Positions 3,622-36,220 of a stretch of DNA of 64,000 nt are shown in pieces. Position 1 is the stretch's first letter; each line of letters starts with the position of its first letter. Origin of the DNA: Candidatus Aenigmatarchaeota archaeon (GTDB lineage: Archaea > Aenigmatarchaeota > Aenigmatarchaeia > CG10238-14 > SCSR01); assembly GCA_018304615.1 (NCBI GenBank), contig JAGVVV010000008.1, forward strand, positions 25,741-89,740, given 5' to 3'. The notes beneath the pieces were generated by a model. That model was not told the DNA's origin. It was given only the letters and a program-made list of their open reading frames with translations, and made no database searches. The translations under genes and the position numbers were made by a program.

Positions 3622-3696
3622 GGGGAAGTCATCTAGCTTGGTCTAGGATTTATCCTTGGGGTGGATAACACCTGGGTTCAAATCCCAGCTTCCCCA
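3622..3696 (+). tRNA. tRNA-Pro (anticodon GGG)
   Basis: Acceptor GGGGAAG/CTTCCCC, D-stem ATCT/GGAT, anticodon stem TATCC/GGATA with loop TTGGGGT, T-arm CTGGG-TTCAAAT-CCCAG, discriminator A; folded by hand. Confidence 0.75.
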
Positions 3697-8993: not shown

Positions 8994-9068
8994 GGGGGAG
9001 TGGTATAGCTTGGTCTAGCATTCCAGCCTTGGGAGTTGGAGACCCGTGTTCAAATCACGGCTCCCCCA
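8994..9068 (+). tRNA. tRNA-Pro (anticodon TGG)
   Basis: Acceptor GGGGGAG/CTCCCCC, anticodon arm CCAGC-CTTGGGA-GTTGG (anticodon TGG), T-arm CCGTG-TTCAAAT-CACGG, discriminator A. Confidence 0.8.
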
Positions 9069-9128
9069 CATTTAAAAAACTGATTCATGAAGATAGCAAA
9101 GATTAAAATTGAAGAAATTAAATAATAC

Positions 9129-32135: not shown

Positions 32136-32282
32136 TGATTCACCTGAATTCTTAATATGCATAGTTATTCTTAAATTTGTTGTTTGACTGCTGTCGGAGA
32201 AAATTCAGACTCAAATCTATGAAATACCACTGGGTTGAGTGGTAAAATAAGGTTTTATCTGCACGTAGAGAAGGATTAATTA

Positions 32283-33083
32283 ATGGAAAAGAAGGAAGTG
32301 CTGGAAATATTGAAGAATTTTGGATTGAGCGAGTATGAGGCTAAGACGTATTCTAGTCTTCTTGTAGCAGGACCATCGAAAGCGGGCGACTTGAGTTTTG
32401 AATCTGGAGTGCCGCAGTCGAAAATTTACGAGACTTTGGAGATGTTGATGGAAAGGCGGATGATAGAAGTTTTCGAAGGCAGACCGAAAGAGTATAAAGC
32501 ACTGCCACCTGATCAAACATTGAGAAATCTGATAGAAGAAAAGGAGGTCGGGATTCAGAAATTGAAGGAAGATAGCATCAATTTGACGAAAGTTCTGAAA
32601 CAAAATAAAGAGGAGAAGGAAATTTTGGAAGGAGTATGGATGGTCAAAGGCAGGAAGTTCAATGAATTCTTTGATATCCTTTCAGACATGTTCGGCAGAA
32701 CTGAGAAATATGCAATCGCGATAACAAAAAATTTTTCATATTCATCTAGATTGAGGGAAGCGATAAAAAGTTGCAAGAGGAGAAAAATTGATTTGAAAAT
32801 TATAGGGATGGGAGAGATAACTTCAGAAAATTACCTGAGAGCGAAATGGTATCATGTGAATGGAATCCCTGTTAGGGTGTTCGACACGATTGTTCACCCA
32901 AGAATTCTTGTGATAGACGGAAAAGAAGTGAACATAAGATTGGATCATGATCATACGAAGAAAAAATTTGCATTTCATTCTATTTCTTCGCAAGATCCTT
33001 CACTTGTCAAAGTCATAGACACGTACATGAAGAATCTTTGGCAGAATTCTGTTCCTGTTGATTTCAAGAAAGTTCCTTCGTAA
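32283..33083 (+). CDS. trmB: TrmB-family transcriptional regulator
   Basis: N-terminal wHTH LSEYEAKTYSSLLVAGPSKAGDLSFESGVPQSKIYETL. Confidence 0.7.
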   Translation: MEKKEVLEILKNFGLSEYEAKTYSSLLVAGPSKAGDLSFESGVPQSKIYETLEMLMERRMIEVFEGRPKEYKALPPDQTLRNLIEEKEVGIQKLKEDSINLTKVLKQNKEEKEILEGVWMVKGRKFNEFFDILSDMFGRTEKYAIAITKNFSYSSRLREAIKSCKRRKIDLKIIGMGEITSENYLRAKWYHVNGIPVRVFDTIVHPRILVIDGKEVNIRLDHDHTKKKFAFHSISSQDPSLVKVIDTYMKNLWQNSVPVDFKKVPS

Positions 33084-33088
33084 GAGAA

Positions 33089-33180
33089 TAGCGGGGCTCG
33101 GATTTGAACCGAGGACCTTCGGGTTTCTTAGATATATTTCATATGAGCCCGACGAGCACTCCAGGCTGCTCCACCCCGCT
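33089..33180 (-). tRNA. initiator tRNA-Met (CAT) with 17-nt canonical intron at 37/38
   Basis: A1:U72 acceptor pair, three G:C pairs closing anticodon stem (TCGGG/CCCGA), loop CTCATA|intron TGAAATATATCTAAGAA|A, T-arm CTCGG-TTCAAAT-CCGAG. Confidence 0.75.
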
Positions 33181-33234
33181 TTGAAACTATTATAATTTCT
33201 TCCTTAGAAACTTAAACTTAAGAATTTGAAAAAT

Positions 33235-33257
33235 ACCACTAATGGTGGTGGTTTTTT
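33235..33257 (+). terminator. hairpin ACCAC-TAATG-GTGGT followed by GG-T6
   Basis: Seen in sequence; strand/target gene unclear. Confidence 0.25.
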
Positions 33258-33396
33258 CATTCAATACCACGATATCCAGTTCTAAATTTTAATCAAATGC
33301 CTTTTCACATCTAGTTCCTATGAGCAAAAAAAGGACAGAGAAGATCTGGACCAAAATAATTTTTCTTTTCAGGAAGCTCATAGAGGAGGTTGAAAA

Positions 33397-33705
33397 TTGA
33401 TGGAATATGTAAGAAGACAGGGTTTGATTGAGAGAACCGTAAGAGGAGTGGTAAAATACGTTCCGGTAGGAACGGGGGTTTCTGTAGGGATAATCGGATA
33501 TGCACTTGCATCAAGTGGAACTTTGGTTTCACAAGGATTGTATACTCTTGTGACTGGTCACACTCAAGGAAACTCAGTAATGGATATTCTTTACAACGCC
33601 CGCAACATGGGCATGCTTGTTGGAGGAGGATCAGGCGGAGTAGCGTGGGTATTGTCTTGGAAGATGAAAAACGATTTACTAGACTGGTTTTTTGGAAAAC
33701 CTTAG
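33397..33705 (+). CDS. small Gly-zipper-like hydrophobic protein (operon gene 1 of 5)
   Basis: 102 aa; GVSVGIIGYALASSG and MLVGGGSGGVAWVLSW segments; GGAGG SD upstream. Confidence 0.5.
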   Translation: MMEYVRRQGLIERTVRGVVKYVPVGTGVSVGIIGYALASSGTLVSQGLYTLVTGHTQGNSVMDILYNARNMGMLVGGGSGGVAWVLSWKMKNDLLDWFFGKP

Positions 33706-33716
33706 GGGGTGAAAAG

Positions 33717-34034
33717 ATGAGTCAAGATTTGAGATATGTTAGAGATGGCGGAGTATTGGGTGTGATTGATGAAAATAGGGGAAAACTGGGACTCCTTGTT
33801 GGTCTTCTTGGAGGAGCATATGTGGCGACTAAAGGCCCACAAGTTGTGAGAGAGTGGAAAAGGCAAGATGCGAAAAATCTGGTCGACGAACTGAGAAATC
33901 AGGGCTACACATTAGCTCCGATAACTGGGAGTCAGCCTTCAGAACCGTATGCTGCATTGACAAATGCAATGACTGCAGCAGTCAAGCAAGGGTTCAAAGA
34001 TGGGGTAGCTGAATTGAAAGGTGGGCAAAAATGA
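33717..34034 (+). CDS. small protein with Gly-rich hydrophobic segment (operon gene 2)
   Basis: 105 aa from ATG 33717 (GGGGGTG SD); GKLGLLVGLLGGAYVATKG. Confidence 0.5.
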   Translation: MSQDLRYVRDGGVLGVIDENRGKLGLLVGLLGGAYVATKGPQVVREWKRQDAKNLVDELRNQGYTLAPITGSQPSEPYAALTNAMTAAVKQGFKDGVAELKGGQK

Positions 34035-34303
34035 GTCAAGAAAAGCCAGAGGACATACTCAAGCCTATCATCTATTCTCTTTTCAAGGCTTGTATGTCTT
34101 TTCCAGATTATATGAATGAATACAGAACTGAAGTTACAAAAAAAGAACCGTTTAAAATTGATGATGTTCTGAAAACTGTTGGGGAGATGGCTAAACCATA
34201 CGAGCAGATGATACCAGCTTCGGCTAGACTCTTTCTGAAATTGGCAAGATCCGGAGGATTGAGTTATGTGATGAAGATAGCTGAAAAGTTGGCTGGTGAT
34301 TAA
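34031..34303 (+). CDS. small acidic hypothetical protein (operon gene 3)
   Basis: 90 aa; start overlaps upstream stop (ATGA). Confidence 0.5.
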   Translation: MSQEKPEDILKPIIYSLFKACMSFPDYMNEYRTEVTKKEPFKIDDVLKTVGEMAKPYEQMIPASARLFLKLARSGGLSYVMKIAEKLAGD

Positions 34304-34652
34304 AATTGACAGGGTTCTCGAATACTGGACGAGATGGAAAGGTCTGGAAGTCACTCCAACTACAGCTCCATACTTTAGGGCGAATAAGTCTGCATACGAA
34401 GAGAGATTGAAGGAATTGCAGAGGCTTTCTGATGAAGTTATTTTAGATCCAAACCTACTTTCTTGCTATAAGGATTCTTTGTCAAATCAGATTTTTGATT
34501 CGATAATAATTCTTGGGAGACCTAACAAGAACGAAGTTCAGGAAATAATCAATTACTTGACGGCCTATGGTGCTGGAGTTGCAACTGGGGTCATAGGAAA
34601 GGAAGTGGTAGACGAGGTTTTAAACGTGAACAAAAATGAGAAGCCAGAATGA
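34296..34652 (+). CDS. hypothetical protein (operon gene 4)
   Basis: 118 aa; overlaps neighbours by 8 and 17 nt. Confidence 0.5.
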   Translation: MIKIDRVLEYWTRWKGLEVTPTTAPYFRANKSAYEERLKELQRLSDEVILDPNLLSCYKDSLSNQIFDSIIILGRPNKNEVQEIINYLTAYGAGVATGVIGKEVVDEVLNVNKNEKPE

Positions 34653-35034
34653 AATTGGAGATGATTTTGAAAAGGAAGTTGCTTTGTATTACCAAGTTCA
34701 CGCTGATTATGTTGATATAAACAGAAGGATCAAGGGACGAAGTGGCGTAATTCATGAACTCGACATATATGCCGTGAAAAAAGGACTTTTTGGAATCACA
34801 GAGACAGCTGTAGAGTGCAAGTACAAGAATAATGGGGACAAAGTGACTCAAGAAGAAGTCGCGAACTTCGTAGTGAAACTTTTGGATACATGTGTAAGAA
34901 GGGGTGATTTTGTGACGAATTCTGATTTCACTAACTATGCCAGATTGCTTGGAAATTTTCACAGATTGAGGTTGGTTGAAGGAAGAAGTTGGAACATGTT
35001 ATGCCAAAGATATGGGTTGCCGCAGAAACATTAA
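34636..35034 (+). CDS. Mrr-cat-like PD-(D/E)xK restriction-endonuclease-domain protein (operon gene 5)
   Basis: 132 aa; FEKEVALYY..GRSGVIHELDIYAV..ETAVECKYKNN..VTQEEVANFV..RRGDFVTNSDFT matches Mrr catalytic domain layout. Confidence 0.55.
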   Translation: MRSQNEIGDDFEKEVALYYQVHADYVDINRRIKGRSGVIHELDIYAVKKGLFGITETAVECKYKNNGDKVTQEEVANFVVKLLDTCVRRGDFVTNSDFTNYARLLGNFHRLRLVEGRSWNMLCQRYGLPQKH

Positions 35035-35092
35035 TCAAACAGTTTCATTAGGATTGAAGAATTTAAAGAGTAAACACGAAAAAATAATAGAT

Positions 35093-36220
35093 ATGGTAGA
35101 GAAATTCATCGTCACCCCTTGGGAAGTGAGAGGACAGATAGATTATGAAAAACTTGTAAAAGAGTTCGGGACTAAACATATAAATCAGAAACTTCTAGAA
35201 AGAATAAAGAAACATACAGGAGAACTTCATCCATTTCTTAGAAGGGGAATTTTCTTTTCTCACAGAGATTTGGACTGGATTCTTAATGAATATGAAAAGG
35301 GAAATAAGTTCTTTTTGTATACTGGGAGAGCACCGTCAGGACCAGTACACATAGGGCATTTGATTCCGTGGATTTTTACTAAATGGCTTCAGGAGAAGTT
35401 TGATGTTGAGCTGTGGTTCCAGTTTCCAGACGAGGAGAAAACATTTTTCAAAGAGAATCTGACACTTGAAGATACGAAAAAGTTTACATATGAAAATGCG
35501 CTTGATGTGATTGCTCTTGGATTTGATCCGAAGAACACACACTTTTTGATTGACACAGTTAATGCTAAAACTATGTATAAGGAGGCTGTGAAGGTTGCAA
35601 AGAAGATTACATTTTCTACGACAAAGGCTGTGTTCGGATTTTCGAATGATACGAACATAGGAGCCATATTTTACACTGCCATGCAGACTGTTCCGGCGTT
35701 TCTGCCTTCAGTTATGAAAGGGAAGAACATTCCTTGTCTGATTCCATACGCCATTGATCAGGACGCCCATTTCAGGATTTCCAGGGATGTGTTGCCGAAG
35801 TTGGGATACTACAAGCCTGCTGCTATTCACTGCATATTCTTGCCTGGCCTGGGAGGAATTGTCGAACAGGGAAAGATGTCTTCTTCAGAAGAGGAGACGA
35901 CCATTTACACTACTGATGATCCTGAGACTGTCAAAAGAAAGATAGTCAAATATGCTTTCTCCGGTGGAGCTGCTACGATTGAAGAACATAGGAAGAAAGG
36001 TGGGAATCCAGACGTAGATGTCTCTTACCAGTGGCTGACTTTCTTTGAGGATGATGATAAGAAATTGAAAAAGATTCATGATGATTACATTTCGGGAAAA
36101 CTTCTAACAGGTGAATTGAAACAAATACTAATCTACAAGTTGAACTCCTTCCTAAAAGAGCATCAGAAGAAAAGAGAGAAAGCAAAAGATCATTACGATA
36201 AATTTATTTTCAAGGATTGA
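35093..36220 (+). CDS. trpS: tryptophanyl-tRNA synthetase
   Basis: HIGH = PVHIGH, KMSKS = KMSSS; start moved to ATG 35093 (upstream extension overlaps the nuclease gene). Confidence 0.85.
   Translation: MVEKFIVTPWEVRGQIDYEKLVKEFGTKHINQKLLERIKKHTGELHPFLRRGIFFSHRDLDWILNEYEKGNKFFLYTGRAPSGPVHIGHLIPWIFTKWLQEKFDVELWFQFPDEEKTFFKENLTLEDTKKFTYENALDVIALGFDPKNTHFLIDTVNAKTMYKEAVKVAKKITFSTTKAVFGFSNDTNIGAIFYTAMQTVPAFLPSVMKGKNIPCLIPYAIDQDAHFRISRDVLPKLGYYKPAAIHCIFLPGLGGIVEQGKMSSSEEETTIYTTDDPETVKRKIVKYAFSGGAATIEEHRKKGGNPDVDVSYQWLTFFEDDDKKLKKIHDDYISGKLLTGELKQILIYKLNSFLKEHQKKREKAKDHYDKFIFKD

What the first reader, a model, noticed from the sequence alone, without database searches (positions are those of the whole stretch)
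33397..35034. Tightly overlapping five-gene operon of small proteins ending in an Mrr-type PD-(D/E)xK nuclease, next to initiator tRNA-Met
Five small ORFs of 102, 105, 90, 118 and 132 aa lie on one strand. Their stop and start codons overlap (ATGA at 34031, 8-nt and 17-nt overlaps), and the first two have good Shine-Dalgarno sequences. Genes 1 and 2 have Gly-zipper-like hydrophobic segments (GVSVGIIGYALASSG, GGGSGGVAWVLSW, GKLGLLVGLLGG). Genes 3 and 4 have no recognisable motif. Gene 5 has the Mrr catalytic-domain layout (E..D-I-Y..E-C-K). This architecture pairs membrane-active small proteins with a nuclease beside a tRNA. It resembles toxin-antitoxin or abortive-infection-style defence modules but matches no named system I know.
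Basis: inference. Interest (0 to 1): 0.7.

Follow-up and report, generated by a model that had tools for sequence, protein, structure and literature searches.

The report
Orphan small-protein operon with optional nuclease
A real, conserved operon of six (not five) small genes in a tiny group of DPANN archaea pairs five proteins unlike anything known with a restriction-type nuclease; relatives often lose the nuclease, so it looks like a stably inherited, regulated cell component of unknown function and not a toxin-antitoxin or abortive-infection module.

Summary
Five same-strand ORFs with 4-, 8- and 17-nt overlaps lie between a divergent, intron-containing initiator tRNA-Met and TrpRS in a Candidatus Aenigmarchaeota MAG. 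Gene 5 is a bare Mrr_cat PD-(D/E)xK nuclease core (Pfam 33 bits, cut-off 21; D43/E60/K62 invariant). Genes 1-4 match nothing in Pfam, NCBIfam, PADLOC, PHROGs or PDB sequences.

New findings:
- A sixth gene, a conserved 26-aa micro-ORF (g0), ends on gene 1's ATG and contains its supposed Shine-Dalgarno.
- The module is conserved in about ten close lineages at the same housekeeping locus. It also occurs in a very distant lineage beside SMC-ScpA.
- The nuclease is ancestral but was lost at least twice, while g1-g4 stay under purifying selection.
- The palindrome TACCACT-N6-AGTGGTA lies upstream of both the adjacent TrmB-family regulator gene and the operon, which suggests shared regulation.
- The Gly-zipper segments are only marginally hydrophobic, so membrane insertion is unproven.
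- Gene 4 is a generic three-helix bundle with a hydrophobic tail. The gene 3 model is uninformative.
- There are no viral or plasmid relatives, no integrase and no att repeats.

Verdict: a real orphan operon with very narrow distribution. The TA/Abi reading is not supported, and function remains inferred. Moderate-low interest.

The parts
32225..32244 (.). Perfect palindrome TACCACT-N6-AGTGGTA directly upstream of the TATA-like box of the TrmB-family gene. Putative autoregulatory operator.
   Evidence: This is the only 0-mismatch site in 64 kb. The same palindrome lies upstream of trmB in L012, L091 and L200.
32283..33083 (+). TrmB-family transcription regulator (266 aa). Syntenic neighbour and candidate regulator of the operon.
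   Evidence: Pfam TrmB PF01978 E=3.5e-21. It is 80-86% identical and syntenic in L012, L091 and L200.
33089..33180 (-). Initiator-type tRNA-Met (CAU) with an intron in the anticodon loop, divergent from the operon.
   Evidence: Rfam RF00005 48.6 bits. A1:U72 and the G29-31:C39-41 pairs were read from the sequence. A homologous tRNA is present in L012 and L091.
33234..33253 (.). Second copy of the N6-spaced palindrome (TACCACTAATGGTGGTGGTT, 2 mismatches), about 30 nt upstream of the operon's TATA-like box. A weaker third site lies at 33265-33284.
   Evidence: It is conserved with identical N6 spacing in L012, L091 and L094/L200.
33283..33293 (+). Conserved TATA-like box (TAAATTTTAAT), about 30 nt upstream of the g0 ATG. 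Implies a leaderless or very short-leader transcript.
   Evidence: Alignment A4. A similar box lies in L199/L201 upstream of the g0-like ORF. Function is inferred.
33320..33400 (+). g0: newly recognised 26-aa micro-ORF (MSKKRTEKIWTKIIFLFRKLIEEVEN). Its TGA stop overlaps the g1 ATG by 1 nt.
   Evidence: Variable columns by codon position are 5/5/12. Seven codons change only synonymously, including Arg AGG/CGA/CGG. A 28-aa ORF occupies the same position in L199/L201.
33400..33705 (+). g1: 101-aa orphan protein with two Gly-zipper-like hydrophobic segments and a conserved C-terminal D-x-(x)-F-G-K/R. It is the fastest-evolving member (29-33% identity to orthologues).
   Evidence: alignment A6. No family hit.
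33717..34034 (+). g2: 105-aa orphan protein with an N-terminal MSQDLRY motif, one Gly-zipper segment and a charged helical C-terminal half.
   Evidence: A3. Only 7 protein clusters found in 5.8 billion sequences. No family or PDB hit.
34031..34303 (+). g3: 90-aa orphan all-helical soluble protein.
34296..34652 (+). g4: 118-aa orphan protein. It has an N-terminal three-helix bundle with the invariant motif YWTRWKxLEVTxT(T/A)APYFRxN, followed by a C-terminal Gly-zipper hydrophobic helix. It overlaps g5 by 17 nt.
34636..35034 (+). g5: 132-aa stand-alone Mrr_cat PD-(D/E)xK nuclease core (D43, E60-C-K62). Ancestral, but absent from several sister lineages.
   Evidence: Pfam PF04471 33.1 bits against a cut-off of 21. 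Alignment A5. PDB 1Y88 E=4.4e-4. Presence and absence across lineages.
35093..36220 (+). Tryptophanyl-tRNA synthetase, the immediate downstream neighbour (context only). Its start region is overlapped by g5 in L091 and L198.
   Evidence: Pfam tRNA-synt_1b. Junction sequences.

Best explanation
This is a vertically inherited, lineage-restricted six-gene operon (g0-g5) of a small clade of Aenigmarchaeota. A deeply divergent copy exists in one other lineage.

Shown:
- All genes are real and under purifying selection.
- Gene order and the start/stop overlaps are conserved.
- g5 is a bare Mrr_cat PD-(D/E)xK nuclease core with an intact D...ExK site.
- g0-g4 form the obligatory core. g5 is ancestral but has been lost repeatedly.
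- The operon has a conserved TATA-like box.
- The palindrome TACCACT-N6-AGTGGTA is shared with the promoter of the adjacent TrmB-family regulator gene.

Inferred mechanism:
- The neighbouring TrmB-family protein autoregulates and also controls the operon through that palindrome.
- A short-leader transcript is translated by coupling (TGATG, ATGA, and the 8- and 17-nt overlaps), giving near-stoichiometric amounts of small helical proteins.
- g1, g2 and g4 associate through their Gly-zipper helices. This could happen at or in the cytoplasmic membrane, or as a soluble helical oligomer. g3 and the three-helix bundle of g4 would then form the cytoplasmic part.
- g4, whose gene is translationally coupled to g5, acts as the adaptor that docks the domain-less nuclease onto this scaffold. 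This supplies the targeting that a full-length Mrr gets from its N-terminal DNA-binding domain.
- The scaffold keeps a nuclease-independent function, because it persists without g5. The nuclease adds a dispensable DNA-cutting activity, either restriction of incoming DNA or DNA scavenging.
For: Genes and selection: ORFs and overlaps; purifying selection.

Synteny: TrmB-tRNA-g1..g4(-g5)-TrpRS is conserved in L012, L091/L092, L093/L094, L198, L200 and the P0002-P0004 contigs. The distant module with all six genes lies beside SMC-ScpA.

Nuclease: g5 matches Mrr_cat above the gathering score and the catalytic residues are invariant. The g4/g5 17-nt overlap is conserved in L091, L198 and P0002. g5-less lineages are interspersed among g5+ lineages, with a g5+ outgroup.

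Regulation: the intergenic region is 81% identical at nucleotide level, with a TATA-like box and operator. The palindrome lies upstream of trmB in four lineages and upstream of g0. There are only two sites with <=2 mismatches in 64 kb.

Micro-ORF: the g0 codon pattern.

Fold: g4 is a three-helix bundle plus a hydrophobic tail.

Context: housekeeping neighbours and flank-like GC.
Against: - No component except g5 has any detectable homologue of known function, so the complex, the adaptor role of g4 and any membrane location are inference only.
- The hydrophobic segments score below the usual transmembrane thresholds. Kyte-Doolittle 19-residue means are 1.0-1.7. A crude Hessa sum gives +3 to +9 kcal/mol, against -0.4 for a control membrane protein.
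- The g4 C-terminus and all of g3 are predicted with low confidence.
- Regulator binding is inferred from motif sharing and adjacency. The distant module has no adjacent TrmB gene.
- The distribution is very narrow and patchy: two 50%-identity clusters among 1.84 billion representatives, and absence next to TrpRS in 78 other DPANN genomes. This is also what an accessory or defence function would show.
Confidence: 0.4

Rival explanations
1. Abortive-infection or toxin-antitoxin-like defence module. On infection, the Gly-zipper proteins permeabilise the membrane and/or release the Mrr-type nuclease to destroy DNA. The other small proteins act as sensor or antitoxin.
For: - The only recognisable domain is a restriction-type nuclease, with weak domain-level PADLOC hits to mREase_IV and PDC-S02.
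- The Gly-rich hydrophobic peptides resemble pore-forming effectors.
- The distribution across archaea is very patchy.
- g1 evolves fast (29-33% identity, against 60-74% for g2-g4), as arms-race components do.
Against: - No accessory gene matches any PADLOC model.
- The position among translation genes stays fixed across lineages whose synonymous sites are saturated.
- g5 has been lost alone at least twice, with g1-g4 retained and constrained and no replacement effector. This is hard to reconcile with g5 as toxin or effector and the others as its antitoxin or sensor.
- There are no neighbouring defence or mobile genes and no viral or plasmid relatives.
Confidence: 0.22
2. Domesticated remnant of a small virus or plasmid that once integrated beside the tRNA gene. 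The small overlapping orphan genes would be former structural or membrane proteins of the element, and g5 its nuclease.
For: - It is adjacent to a tRNA gene.
- Compact overlapping orphan ORFs are typical of archaeal mobile elements.
- A LAGLIDADG-like ORF sits in the same intergenic region in L091.
- The module occupies a different locus in the distant lineage.
Against: - There is no integrase, replication or packaging gene within +/-10 kb.
- No direct repeat of tRNA sequence flanks the cluster.
- GC content is like the flanks.
- There are no relatives in IMG/VR, PHROGs, BFVD or plasmids.
- The cluster lies 5' of the tRNA and is divergent from it, not at its 3' end.
- It is stably inherited under purifying selection.
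Confidence: 0.1
3. A purely cellular, non-nuclease function. For example, a small envelope or membrane-homeostasis or cell-contact complex of these episymbiotic archaea. g5 would be an unrelated nuclease gene that merely landed between g4 and TrpRS.
For: - The g0-g4 core persists without g5.
- The context is housekeeping.
- The promoter region is conserved and apparently regulated.
Against: - g5 follows g4 with overlapping stop and start codons in both deeply divergent lineages: 17 nt in the Aenigmarchaeota clade and 4 nt in L199/L201.
- This is ancestral linkage with translational coupling and argues for a functional tie, not a chance insertion.
Confidence: 0.2

Closest known systems
Mrr / Mrr_cat (PF04471) type IV restriction endonuclease catalytic domain; nearest solved relative AF1548 of Archaeoglobus fulgidus (PDB 1Y88)
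   Same: g5 matches the Mrr_cat profile above Pfam's cut-off and keeps the D...E-x-K catalytic signature. Its profile finds 1Y88.
   Different: g5 is only the 130-150-aa catalytic core. It has no Mrr_N or other DNA-binding or modification-reading domain. It is encoded as the last, translationally coupled gene of an operon of orphan small proteins, and it is dispensable in sister lineages.
Defence systems that combine membrane proteins with a nuclease effector (for example Zorya type II ZorAB + ZorE, Kiwa, or TM-effector Abi systems)
   Same: There is a superficial architectural resemblance: hydrophobic small proteins encoded with a nuclease.
   Different: No sequence or profile similarity to any PADLOC model was found for g0-g4. 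There is no motor or sensor domain. The chromosomal position is fixed, not a defence island. The nuclease is lost independently of the rest. This comparison rests on recalled architecture only, not on homology.
Glycine-zipper small membrane proteins (Pfam Gly-zipper_Omp / YMGG / 2TM families, YtxH-like, class II bacteriocin-like peptides)
   Same: GxxxG/GxxxA-type repeats occur in short hydrophobic helices of g1, g2 and g4.
   Different: No Pfam hit even at E<=1. Hydrophobicity is sub-threshold for autonomous membrane insertion. There are no signal or leader peptides.
TrmB-family regulons with the Thermococcales glycolytic motif (TATCAC-N5-GTGATA)
   Same: An adjacent TrmB-family gene and a similar inverted repeat (TACCACT-N6-AGTGGTA) lie upstream of both the regulator gene and the operon.
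   Different: The half-site sequence and spacing differ. The target genes are orphan small proteins, not sugar metabolism or transport genes. Binding is untested. The TGM consensus is quoted from memory of the literature.

Membership tests
Mrr_cat / PD-(D/E)xK nuclease superfamily (g5) | Match to the PF04471 profile above the curated gathering score | tested here: met
   33.1 bits against a cut-off of 21, E=6.8e-8. The distant orthologue in L201 scores 57.4 bits, E=1.9e-15.
Mrr_cat / PD-(D/E)xK nuclease superfamily (g5) | Conserved catalytic D ... (D/E)-x-K motif | tested here: met
   D43, E60 and K62 are invariant in alignment A5 across four lineages. The helix-1 Glu (E12) is replaced by Ala in L091.
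Mrr_cat / PD-(D/E)xK nuclease superfamily (g5) | Restriction-endonuclease alpha/beta fold | tested here: inconclusive
Support is indirect: the profile matches solved AF1548 (1Y88) at E=4.4e-4.
Mrr_cat / PD-(D/E)xK nuclease superfamily (g5) | Metal-dependent DNA cleavage | not testable with these tools
   Needs a biochemical assay.
Full-length Mrr-type type IV restriction enzyme | N-terminal winged-helix (Mrr_N) or other modified-DNA-reading domain fused to the catalytic domain | tested here: not met
   g5 is 132 aa, and the Mrr_cat match spans residues 9-118. There is no other Pfam domain.
Known anti-phage defence / TA / Abi systems (PADLOC-DB) | Component proteins match models of a described system | tested here: not met
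   g1-g4 have no hits at E<=1. g5 has only weak domain-level hits (mREase_IV E=0.0016, PDC-S02 E=0.019).
Known anti-phage defence / TA / Abi systems (PADLOC-DB) | Variable, island-like or mobile genomic context | tested here: not met
   The slot between TrmB/tRNA-iMet and TrpRS/PheRS is the same in all close lineages, and the neighbours are translation genes. The distant copy lies beside SMC-ScpA.
Known anti-phage defence / TA / Abi systems (PADLOC-DB) | Toxin and its neutralising partner(s) are kept or lost together | tested here: not met
   g5 is absent from L012, L093/L094/L200 and the P0004 contig, while g1-g4 are intact and constrained.
Known anti-phage defence / TA / Abi systems (PADLOC-DB) | Toxicity or phage protection on expression | not testable with these tools
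   Needs an experiment.
Glycine-zipper transmembrane proteins (g1, g2, g4) | GxxxG-type repeat in a hydrophobic helix | tested here: met
   The segments are VGTGVSVGIIGYALA and GMLVGGGSGGVAWVL in g1, LGLLVGLLGGAYVAT in g2 and YLTAYGAGVATGVIG in g4. They are conserved in kind in L199/L201.
Glycine-zipper transmembrane proteins (g1, g2, g4) | Segment long and hydrophobic enough to span a membrane | tested here: inconclusive
   Kyte-Doolittle 19-residue maxima are 0.97-1.68, where the usual threshold is about 1.6. A crude biological-scale sum gives +3 to +9 kcal/mol, against -0.4 for a control. No dedicated topology predictor was available.
Glycine-zipper transmembrane proteins (g1, g2, g4) | Match to a Pfam Gly-zipper family | tested here: not met
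   No hit at E<=1 for the window proteins or the L201/L091 orthologues.
tRNA-integrated mobile element | Integrase, and a direct repeat of the tRNA fragment bounding the insert | tested here: not met
   There is no integrase among the Pfam-annotated neighbours. No tRNA-derived direct repeat occurs in 32800-35400. GC is not deviant.
Initiator tRNA-Met (archaeal type) | CAU anticodon, A1:U72 pair, three consecutive G:C pairs in the anticodon stem | tested here: met
   Rfam tRNA 48.6 bits. The sequence AGCGGGG...TCGGGCTCAT[intron]CCCGA...CCCCGCTA was read directly. That these features define initiators is established knowledge.
TrmB-family regulon | Shared inverted-repeat operator at the regulator's own promoter and at the target promoter | tested here: met
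   TACCACT-N6-AGTGGTA is perfect upstream of trmB (32225-32244) in four lineages. A copy with 2 mismatches and the same N6 spacing lies upstream of g0 in four lineages.
TrmB-family regulon | Regulator binds the operator and changes transcription | not testable with these tools
   Needs EMSA/footprinting and expression data.

The most novel reading that the evidence does not exclude
g0-g5 encode a previously unknown minimal machine of DPANN episymbionts. A Gly-zipper helical assembly (g1, g2, g4) forms a pore or platform at the cytoplasmic membrane. A tail-anchored adaptor (g4) holds a domain-less PD-(D/E)xK nuclease at its inner face. Incoming DNA, viral or scavenged from the host, is cut as it enters. 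This would be either a new class of membrane-coupled restriction or a DNA-salvage device. The whole is switched by a TrmB-type regulator.
Probability: 0.12. Interest if true: 0.7.

Novelty: categorically new. Interest (0 to 1): 0.38.

Why it matters
If the products form a complex, this would show how a bare restriction-type nuclease core is targeted by tiny partner proteins rather than by a fused DNA-binding domain. It would also give a handle on the large orphan proteome of DPANN archaea, whose biology depends on membranes, hosts and scavenged nucleic acids. The 26-aa micro-ORF and the shared operator give concrete, testable entry points: EMSA, 5'-end mapping and co-expression.

Its reach is limited. 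The family is confined to about ten near-species lineages plus one distant one. No function is demonstrated, and orphan operons are common in these genomes. The label 'categorically new' here means only that five of the six proteins and the unit as a whole fit no known kind. It does not mean that a new mechanism has been shown.

Tried and rejected
- **Metagenome scans.** The g4 alignment and a degenerate EYWTRWK DNA pattern returned only chance matches. tblastn of all five proteins against the 103 loci found nothing.
- **afdb50.** This fold library was not available.
- **g1/g2 paralogy.** It was suggested by a weak BLAST hit and rejected by profile-profile comparison (probability 1%).
- **The ACCAC...GTGG element.** I first read it as an RNA hairpin or terminator. 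I reinterpreted it as a DNA operator, because the same N6-spaced palindrome sits upstream of trmB and only the window copy is followed by a T-run.
- **Hjc-type Holliday-junction resolvase for g5.** I considered this because the size and motif spacing are similar. Only Mrr_cat is hit, and there is no Hjc match at E<=1.
- **Viral, plasmid or integrated-element origin.** No hits and no att repeats.
- **Local HMM search.** Profile HMMs for g1-g5 searched against about 20,600 ORFs from all fetched DPANN loci found no further relatives.
- **Literature.** Searches found no description of such a module.
Full report
**1. The observation**

The window comes from a DPANN archaeon. NCBI calls the matching MAG 'Candidatus Aenigmarchaeota archaeon', with locus tags J4452_01765/01775. 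The ORF listing and the sequence show the five same-strand ORFs at the stated coordinates. The overlaps are ATGA for g2/g3, 8 nt for g3/g4 and 17 nt for g4/g5.

The tRNA was missed by ARAGORN. Rfam finds it at 33089-33180 on the minus strand with 48.6 bits. It has a CAU anticodon, A1:U72, three G:C pairs in the anticodon stem and an intron in the anticodon loop, so it is an initiator-type tRNA-Met divergent from the operon.

The flanks are a TrmB-family regulator gene (32283-33083) and TrpRS (35093-36220). The wider neighbourhood is translation and housekeeping: L31e, eIF6, S27e, S24e, Spt4, Rpb7, H+-PPase, aIF2-gamma, S6e and PheRS. GC content of the cluster (0.37-0.46) is like that of the flanks.

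**2. What the proteins are**

Only g5 has a family: Mrr_cat PF04471, 33.1 bits against a gathering score of 21.
- An alignment of four orthologues keeps D43 and E60-C-K62 invariant.
- Its profile finds the solved archaeal Mrr-like protein AF1548 (1Y88, E=4.4e-4).
- The distant orthologue scores 57 bits.
- g5 is the catalytic core only. It has no DNA-binding domain.

g1-g4 have no hit at E<=1 that means anything in Pfam, NCBIfam, PADLOC or PHROGs. As profiles, they have no hit among PDB sequences.

The Gly-zipper-like segments exist in g1 (two), g2 (one) and g4 (one, C-terminal). They are short and only marginally hydrophobic:
- Kyte-Doolittle 19-residue maxima are 0.97-1.68.
- A crude biological-scale sum gives +3 to +9 kcal/mol, against -0.4 for a neighbouring bona fide membrane protein.

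Membrane insertion is therefore possible but not established.

**3. Comparative genomics**

The families are extremely narrow.
- g4 has 9 clusters among 5.8 billion proteins.
- g3 has 9 clusters and g2 has 7.
- A profile search of 1.84 billion representatives with g4 found only its own cluster and one remote relative, P0026 (E=1.2e-8).

Among 80 DPANN genomes fetched through TrpRS, only one (L012) carries the cluster.

Contexts of the g4 and g3 relatives show the same order in every close lineage: TrmB - tRNA - g1 - g2 - g3 - g4 - (g5) - TrpRS - PheRS.
- g5 is present, always overlapping g4 by 17 nt, in the window lineage, P0002, P0006/L198 and P0007/L091.
- g5 is absent from L012, P0005/L093/L094/L200 and P0004, and probably from P0003. 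In these, g4 is followed within about 30-40 nt by TrpRS.
- A 20-kb contig of a g5-less lineage shows no g5 within 10 kb.

The remote relative P0026 lies in L199/L201. There the whole module recurs beside SMC-ScpA instead of TrpRS: a 28-aa ORF, then g1-, g2-, g3- and g4-like genes and an intact 153-aa Mrr_cat gene. Each window protein finds its positional counterpart as best match. The frameshift in the L199 g5 copy is absent from L201.

A neighbour-joining tree of g4, rooted with L199, places g5-less lineages among g5-bearing ones. So g5 is ancestral and was lost at least twice. The caveat is that this is a short protein and a weakly resolved tree.

Synonymous sites between lineages are saturated (pS 0.55-0.79), while pN is 0.07-0.24 for g2-g5. 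This includes comparisons between two g5-less lineages. The genes are real, and g1-g4 stay constrained without the nuclease. The window's g1 is unusually divergent (29-33% identity), although g1 is constrained elsewhere.

**4. New features upstream**

The tRNA-to-g1 intergenic region is 81% identical at nucleotide level across four lineages, despite the saturated synonymous sites. It contains three features.

*A 26-aa ORF, g0 (33320-33400).*
- Its stop overlaps the g1 ATG (TGATG).
- Its variation is codon-like: 5/5/12 variable columns by codon position, and seven codons with only synonymous changes.
- A 28-aa ORF sits at the same place in L199/L201.
It may well still serve that role.

*A conserved TATA-like box.* It lies about 30 nt upstream of the g0 ATG.

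*An inverted repeat, TACCACT-N6-AGTGGT.*
- Its spacing is constant across lineages.
- The perfect version, TACCACT-N6-AGTGGTA, lies immediately upstream of the TATA-like box of the trmB gene in all four lineages.
- In the 64-kb window, only these two sites match with <=2 mismatches.

I therefore read it as the operator of the adjacent TrmB-family regulator, which would autoregulate and control g0-g5. This is an inference from motif sharing and adjacency.

**5. Interpretation**

The operon is a stable, vertically inherited unit with a regulated promoter in a housekeeping context. It has none of the features of a mobile or defence island:
- There is no integrase or defence neighbour.
- There are no att-like repeats.
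- It has no relatives in IMG/VR, PHROGs, BFVD or plasmids.

The nuclease has been removed on its own several times. That is difficult to reconcile with a toxin-antitoxin or abortive-infection logic in which the small proteins exist to control or trigger the nuclease.

Against this, the g4-g5 overlap is kept in two lineages that share only about 31% identity in g4. This argues that the nuclease is a true, if dispensable, partner.

My best model (confidence about 0.4) has these parts:
- A translationally coupled set of small helical proteins assembles through Gly-zipper helices, possibly at the membrane.
- g4 acts as the adaptor for a domain-less Mrr-type nuclease.
- The scaffold has a function of its own.
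- The nuclease adds an optional DNA-cutting activity.

The rivals are Abi/TA-like defence (0.22), a cellular complex with an unrelated nuclease (0.20) and a domesticated mobile-element remnant (0.10).

**6. Comparison with the known, and verdict**

g5 is a new member of the Mrr_cat family. It is not a full Mrr enzyme, because it lacks the N-terminal reader domain. g0-g4, and the unit as a whole, belong to no described family or system. The resemblance to membrane-plus-nuclease defence systems is architectural only. The putative operator resembles, but differs from, the Thermococcales TGM bound by TrmB-family regulators (consensus recalled from the literature).

Its defence interpretation is not supported. 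Because the distribution is tiny, the function is unknown and orphan operons are common in DPANN genomes, I score interest at about 0.38 rather than 0.7.

Noticed in passing
window 33320-33400: A conserved 26-aa micro-ORF (g0, MSKKRTEKIWTKIIFLFRKLIEEVEN) lies upstream of g1 and ends on g1's ATG. Its substitution pattern is codon-like, and a 28-aa counterpart exists in L199/L201. It is not in the public gene calls.
   Followed up: yes
window 32225-32244, 33234-33253, 33265-33284: The palindrome TACCACT-N6-AGTGGTA lies upstream of the TrmB-family gene and, in slightly degenerate form, upstream of the operon. It is conserved in four lineages and is probably the operator of the adjacent regulator. 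The heptamer ATACCAC occurs 9 times in the window against 3.1 expected.
   Followed up: partly
window 33089-33180; L012 2315-2395; L091 8697-8830; L094 1-60: The initiator tRNA-Met carries insertions or introns at different positions in different lineages. In the window the intron is in the anticodon loop. L012 and L094 have an extra block in the D-arm region, and L091 has several insertions. ARAGORN fails on all of them, and Rfam fails on L091.
   Followed up: partly
L091 7834-8670: A 278-aa ORF with LAGLIDADG-like motifs (weak Pfam LAGLIDADG_3, E=0.026) is inserted between the TrmB gene and the tRNA in one lineage only.
   Followed up: no
L091 10717-11835 vs window 35093-36220: The TrpRS at the syntenic position in the L091/L092 lineage is only 42% identical to the window's TrpRS, whereas other relatives are 82-93% identical and the neighbouring TrmB is 80%. 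This suggests in-place displacement by a different TrpRS type.
   Followed up: no
window 34973-35017 and 35058-35100: The 3' end of g5 and the TrpRS leader contain two diverged copies of one segment (..TTGAAG.A.....AAAGATATGG..). In L091 and L198 the single copy encodes the g5 C-terminus and contains the TrpRS ATG. So the g5/TrpRS junction has been remodelled by duplication or deletion.
   Followed up: partly
L201 3223-3576 (minus strand); same gene in L199 1283-1636: The gene divergent from the distant module encodes a 117-aa multi-pass membrane protein with a weak, sub-threshold match to EMC6_arch (E=0.004), a membrane-protein insertase subunit family.
   Followed up: no
window 33706-33727, 34020-34041, 34619-34640: The translation-initiation regions of g2, g3 and g5 are near-repeats (GGxG..AAAAATGAG(TCAAGA)). 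Both g2 and g3 start with MSQ. This is consistent with uniform coupling signals within the operon.
   Followed up: no
window 3622-3696 and 8994-9069: Two tRNA-Pro genes (GGG and UGG anticodons) are the only tRNAs that ARAGORN reports in the window.
   Followed up: no
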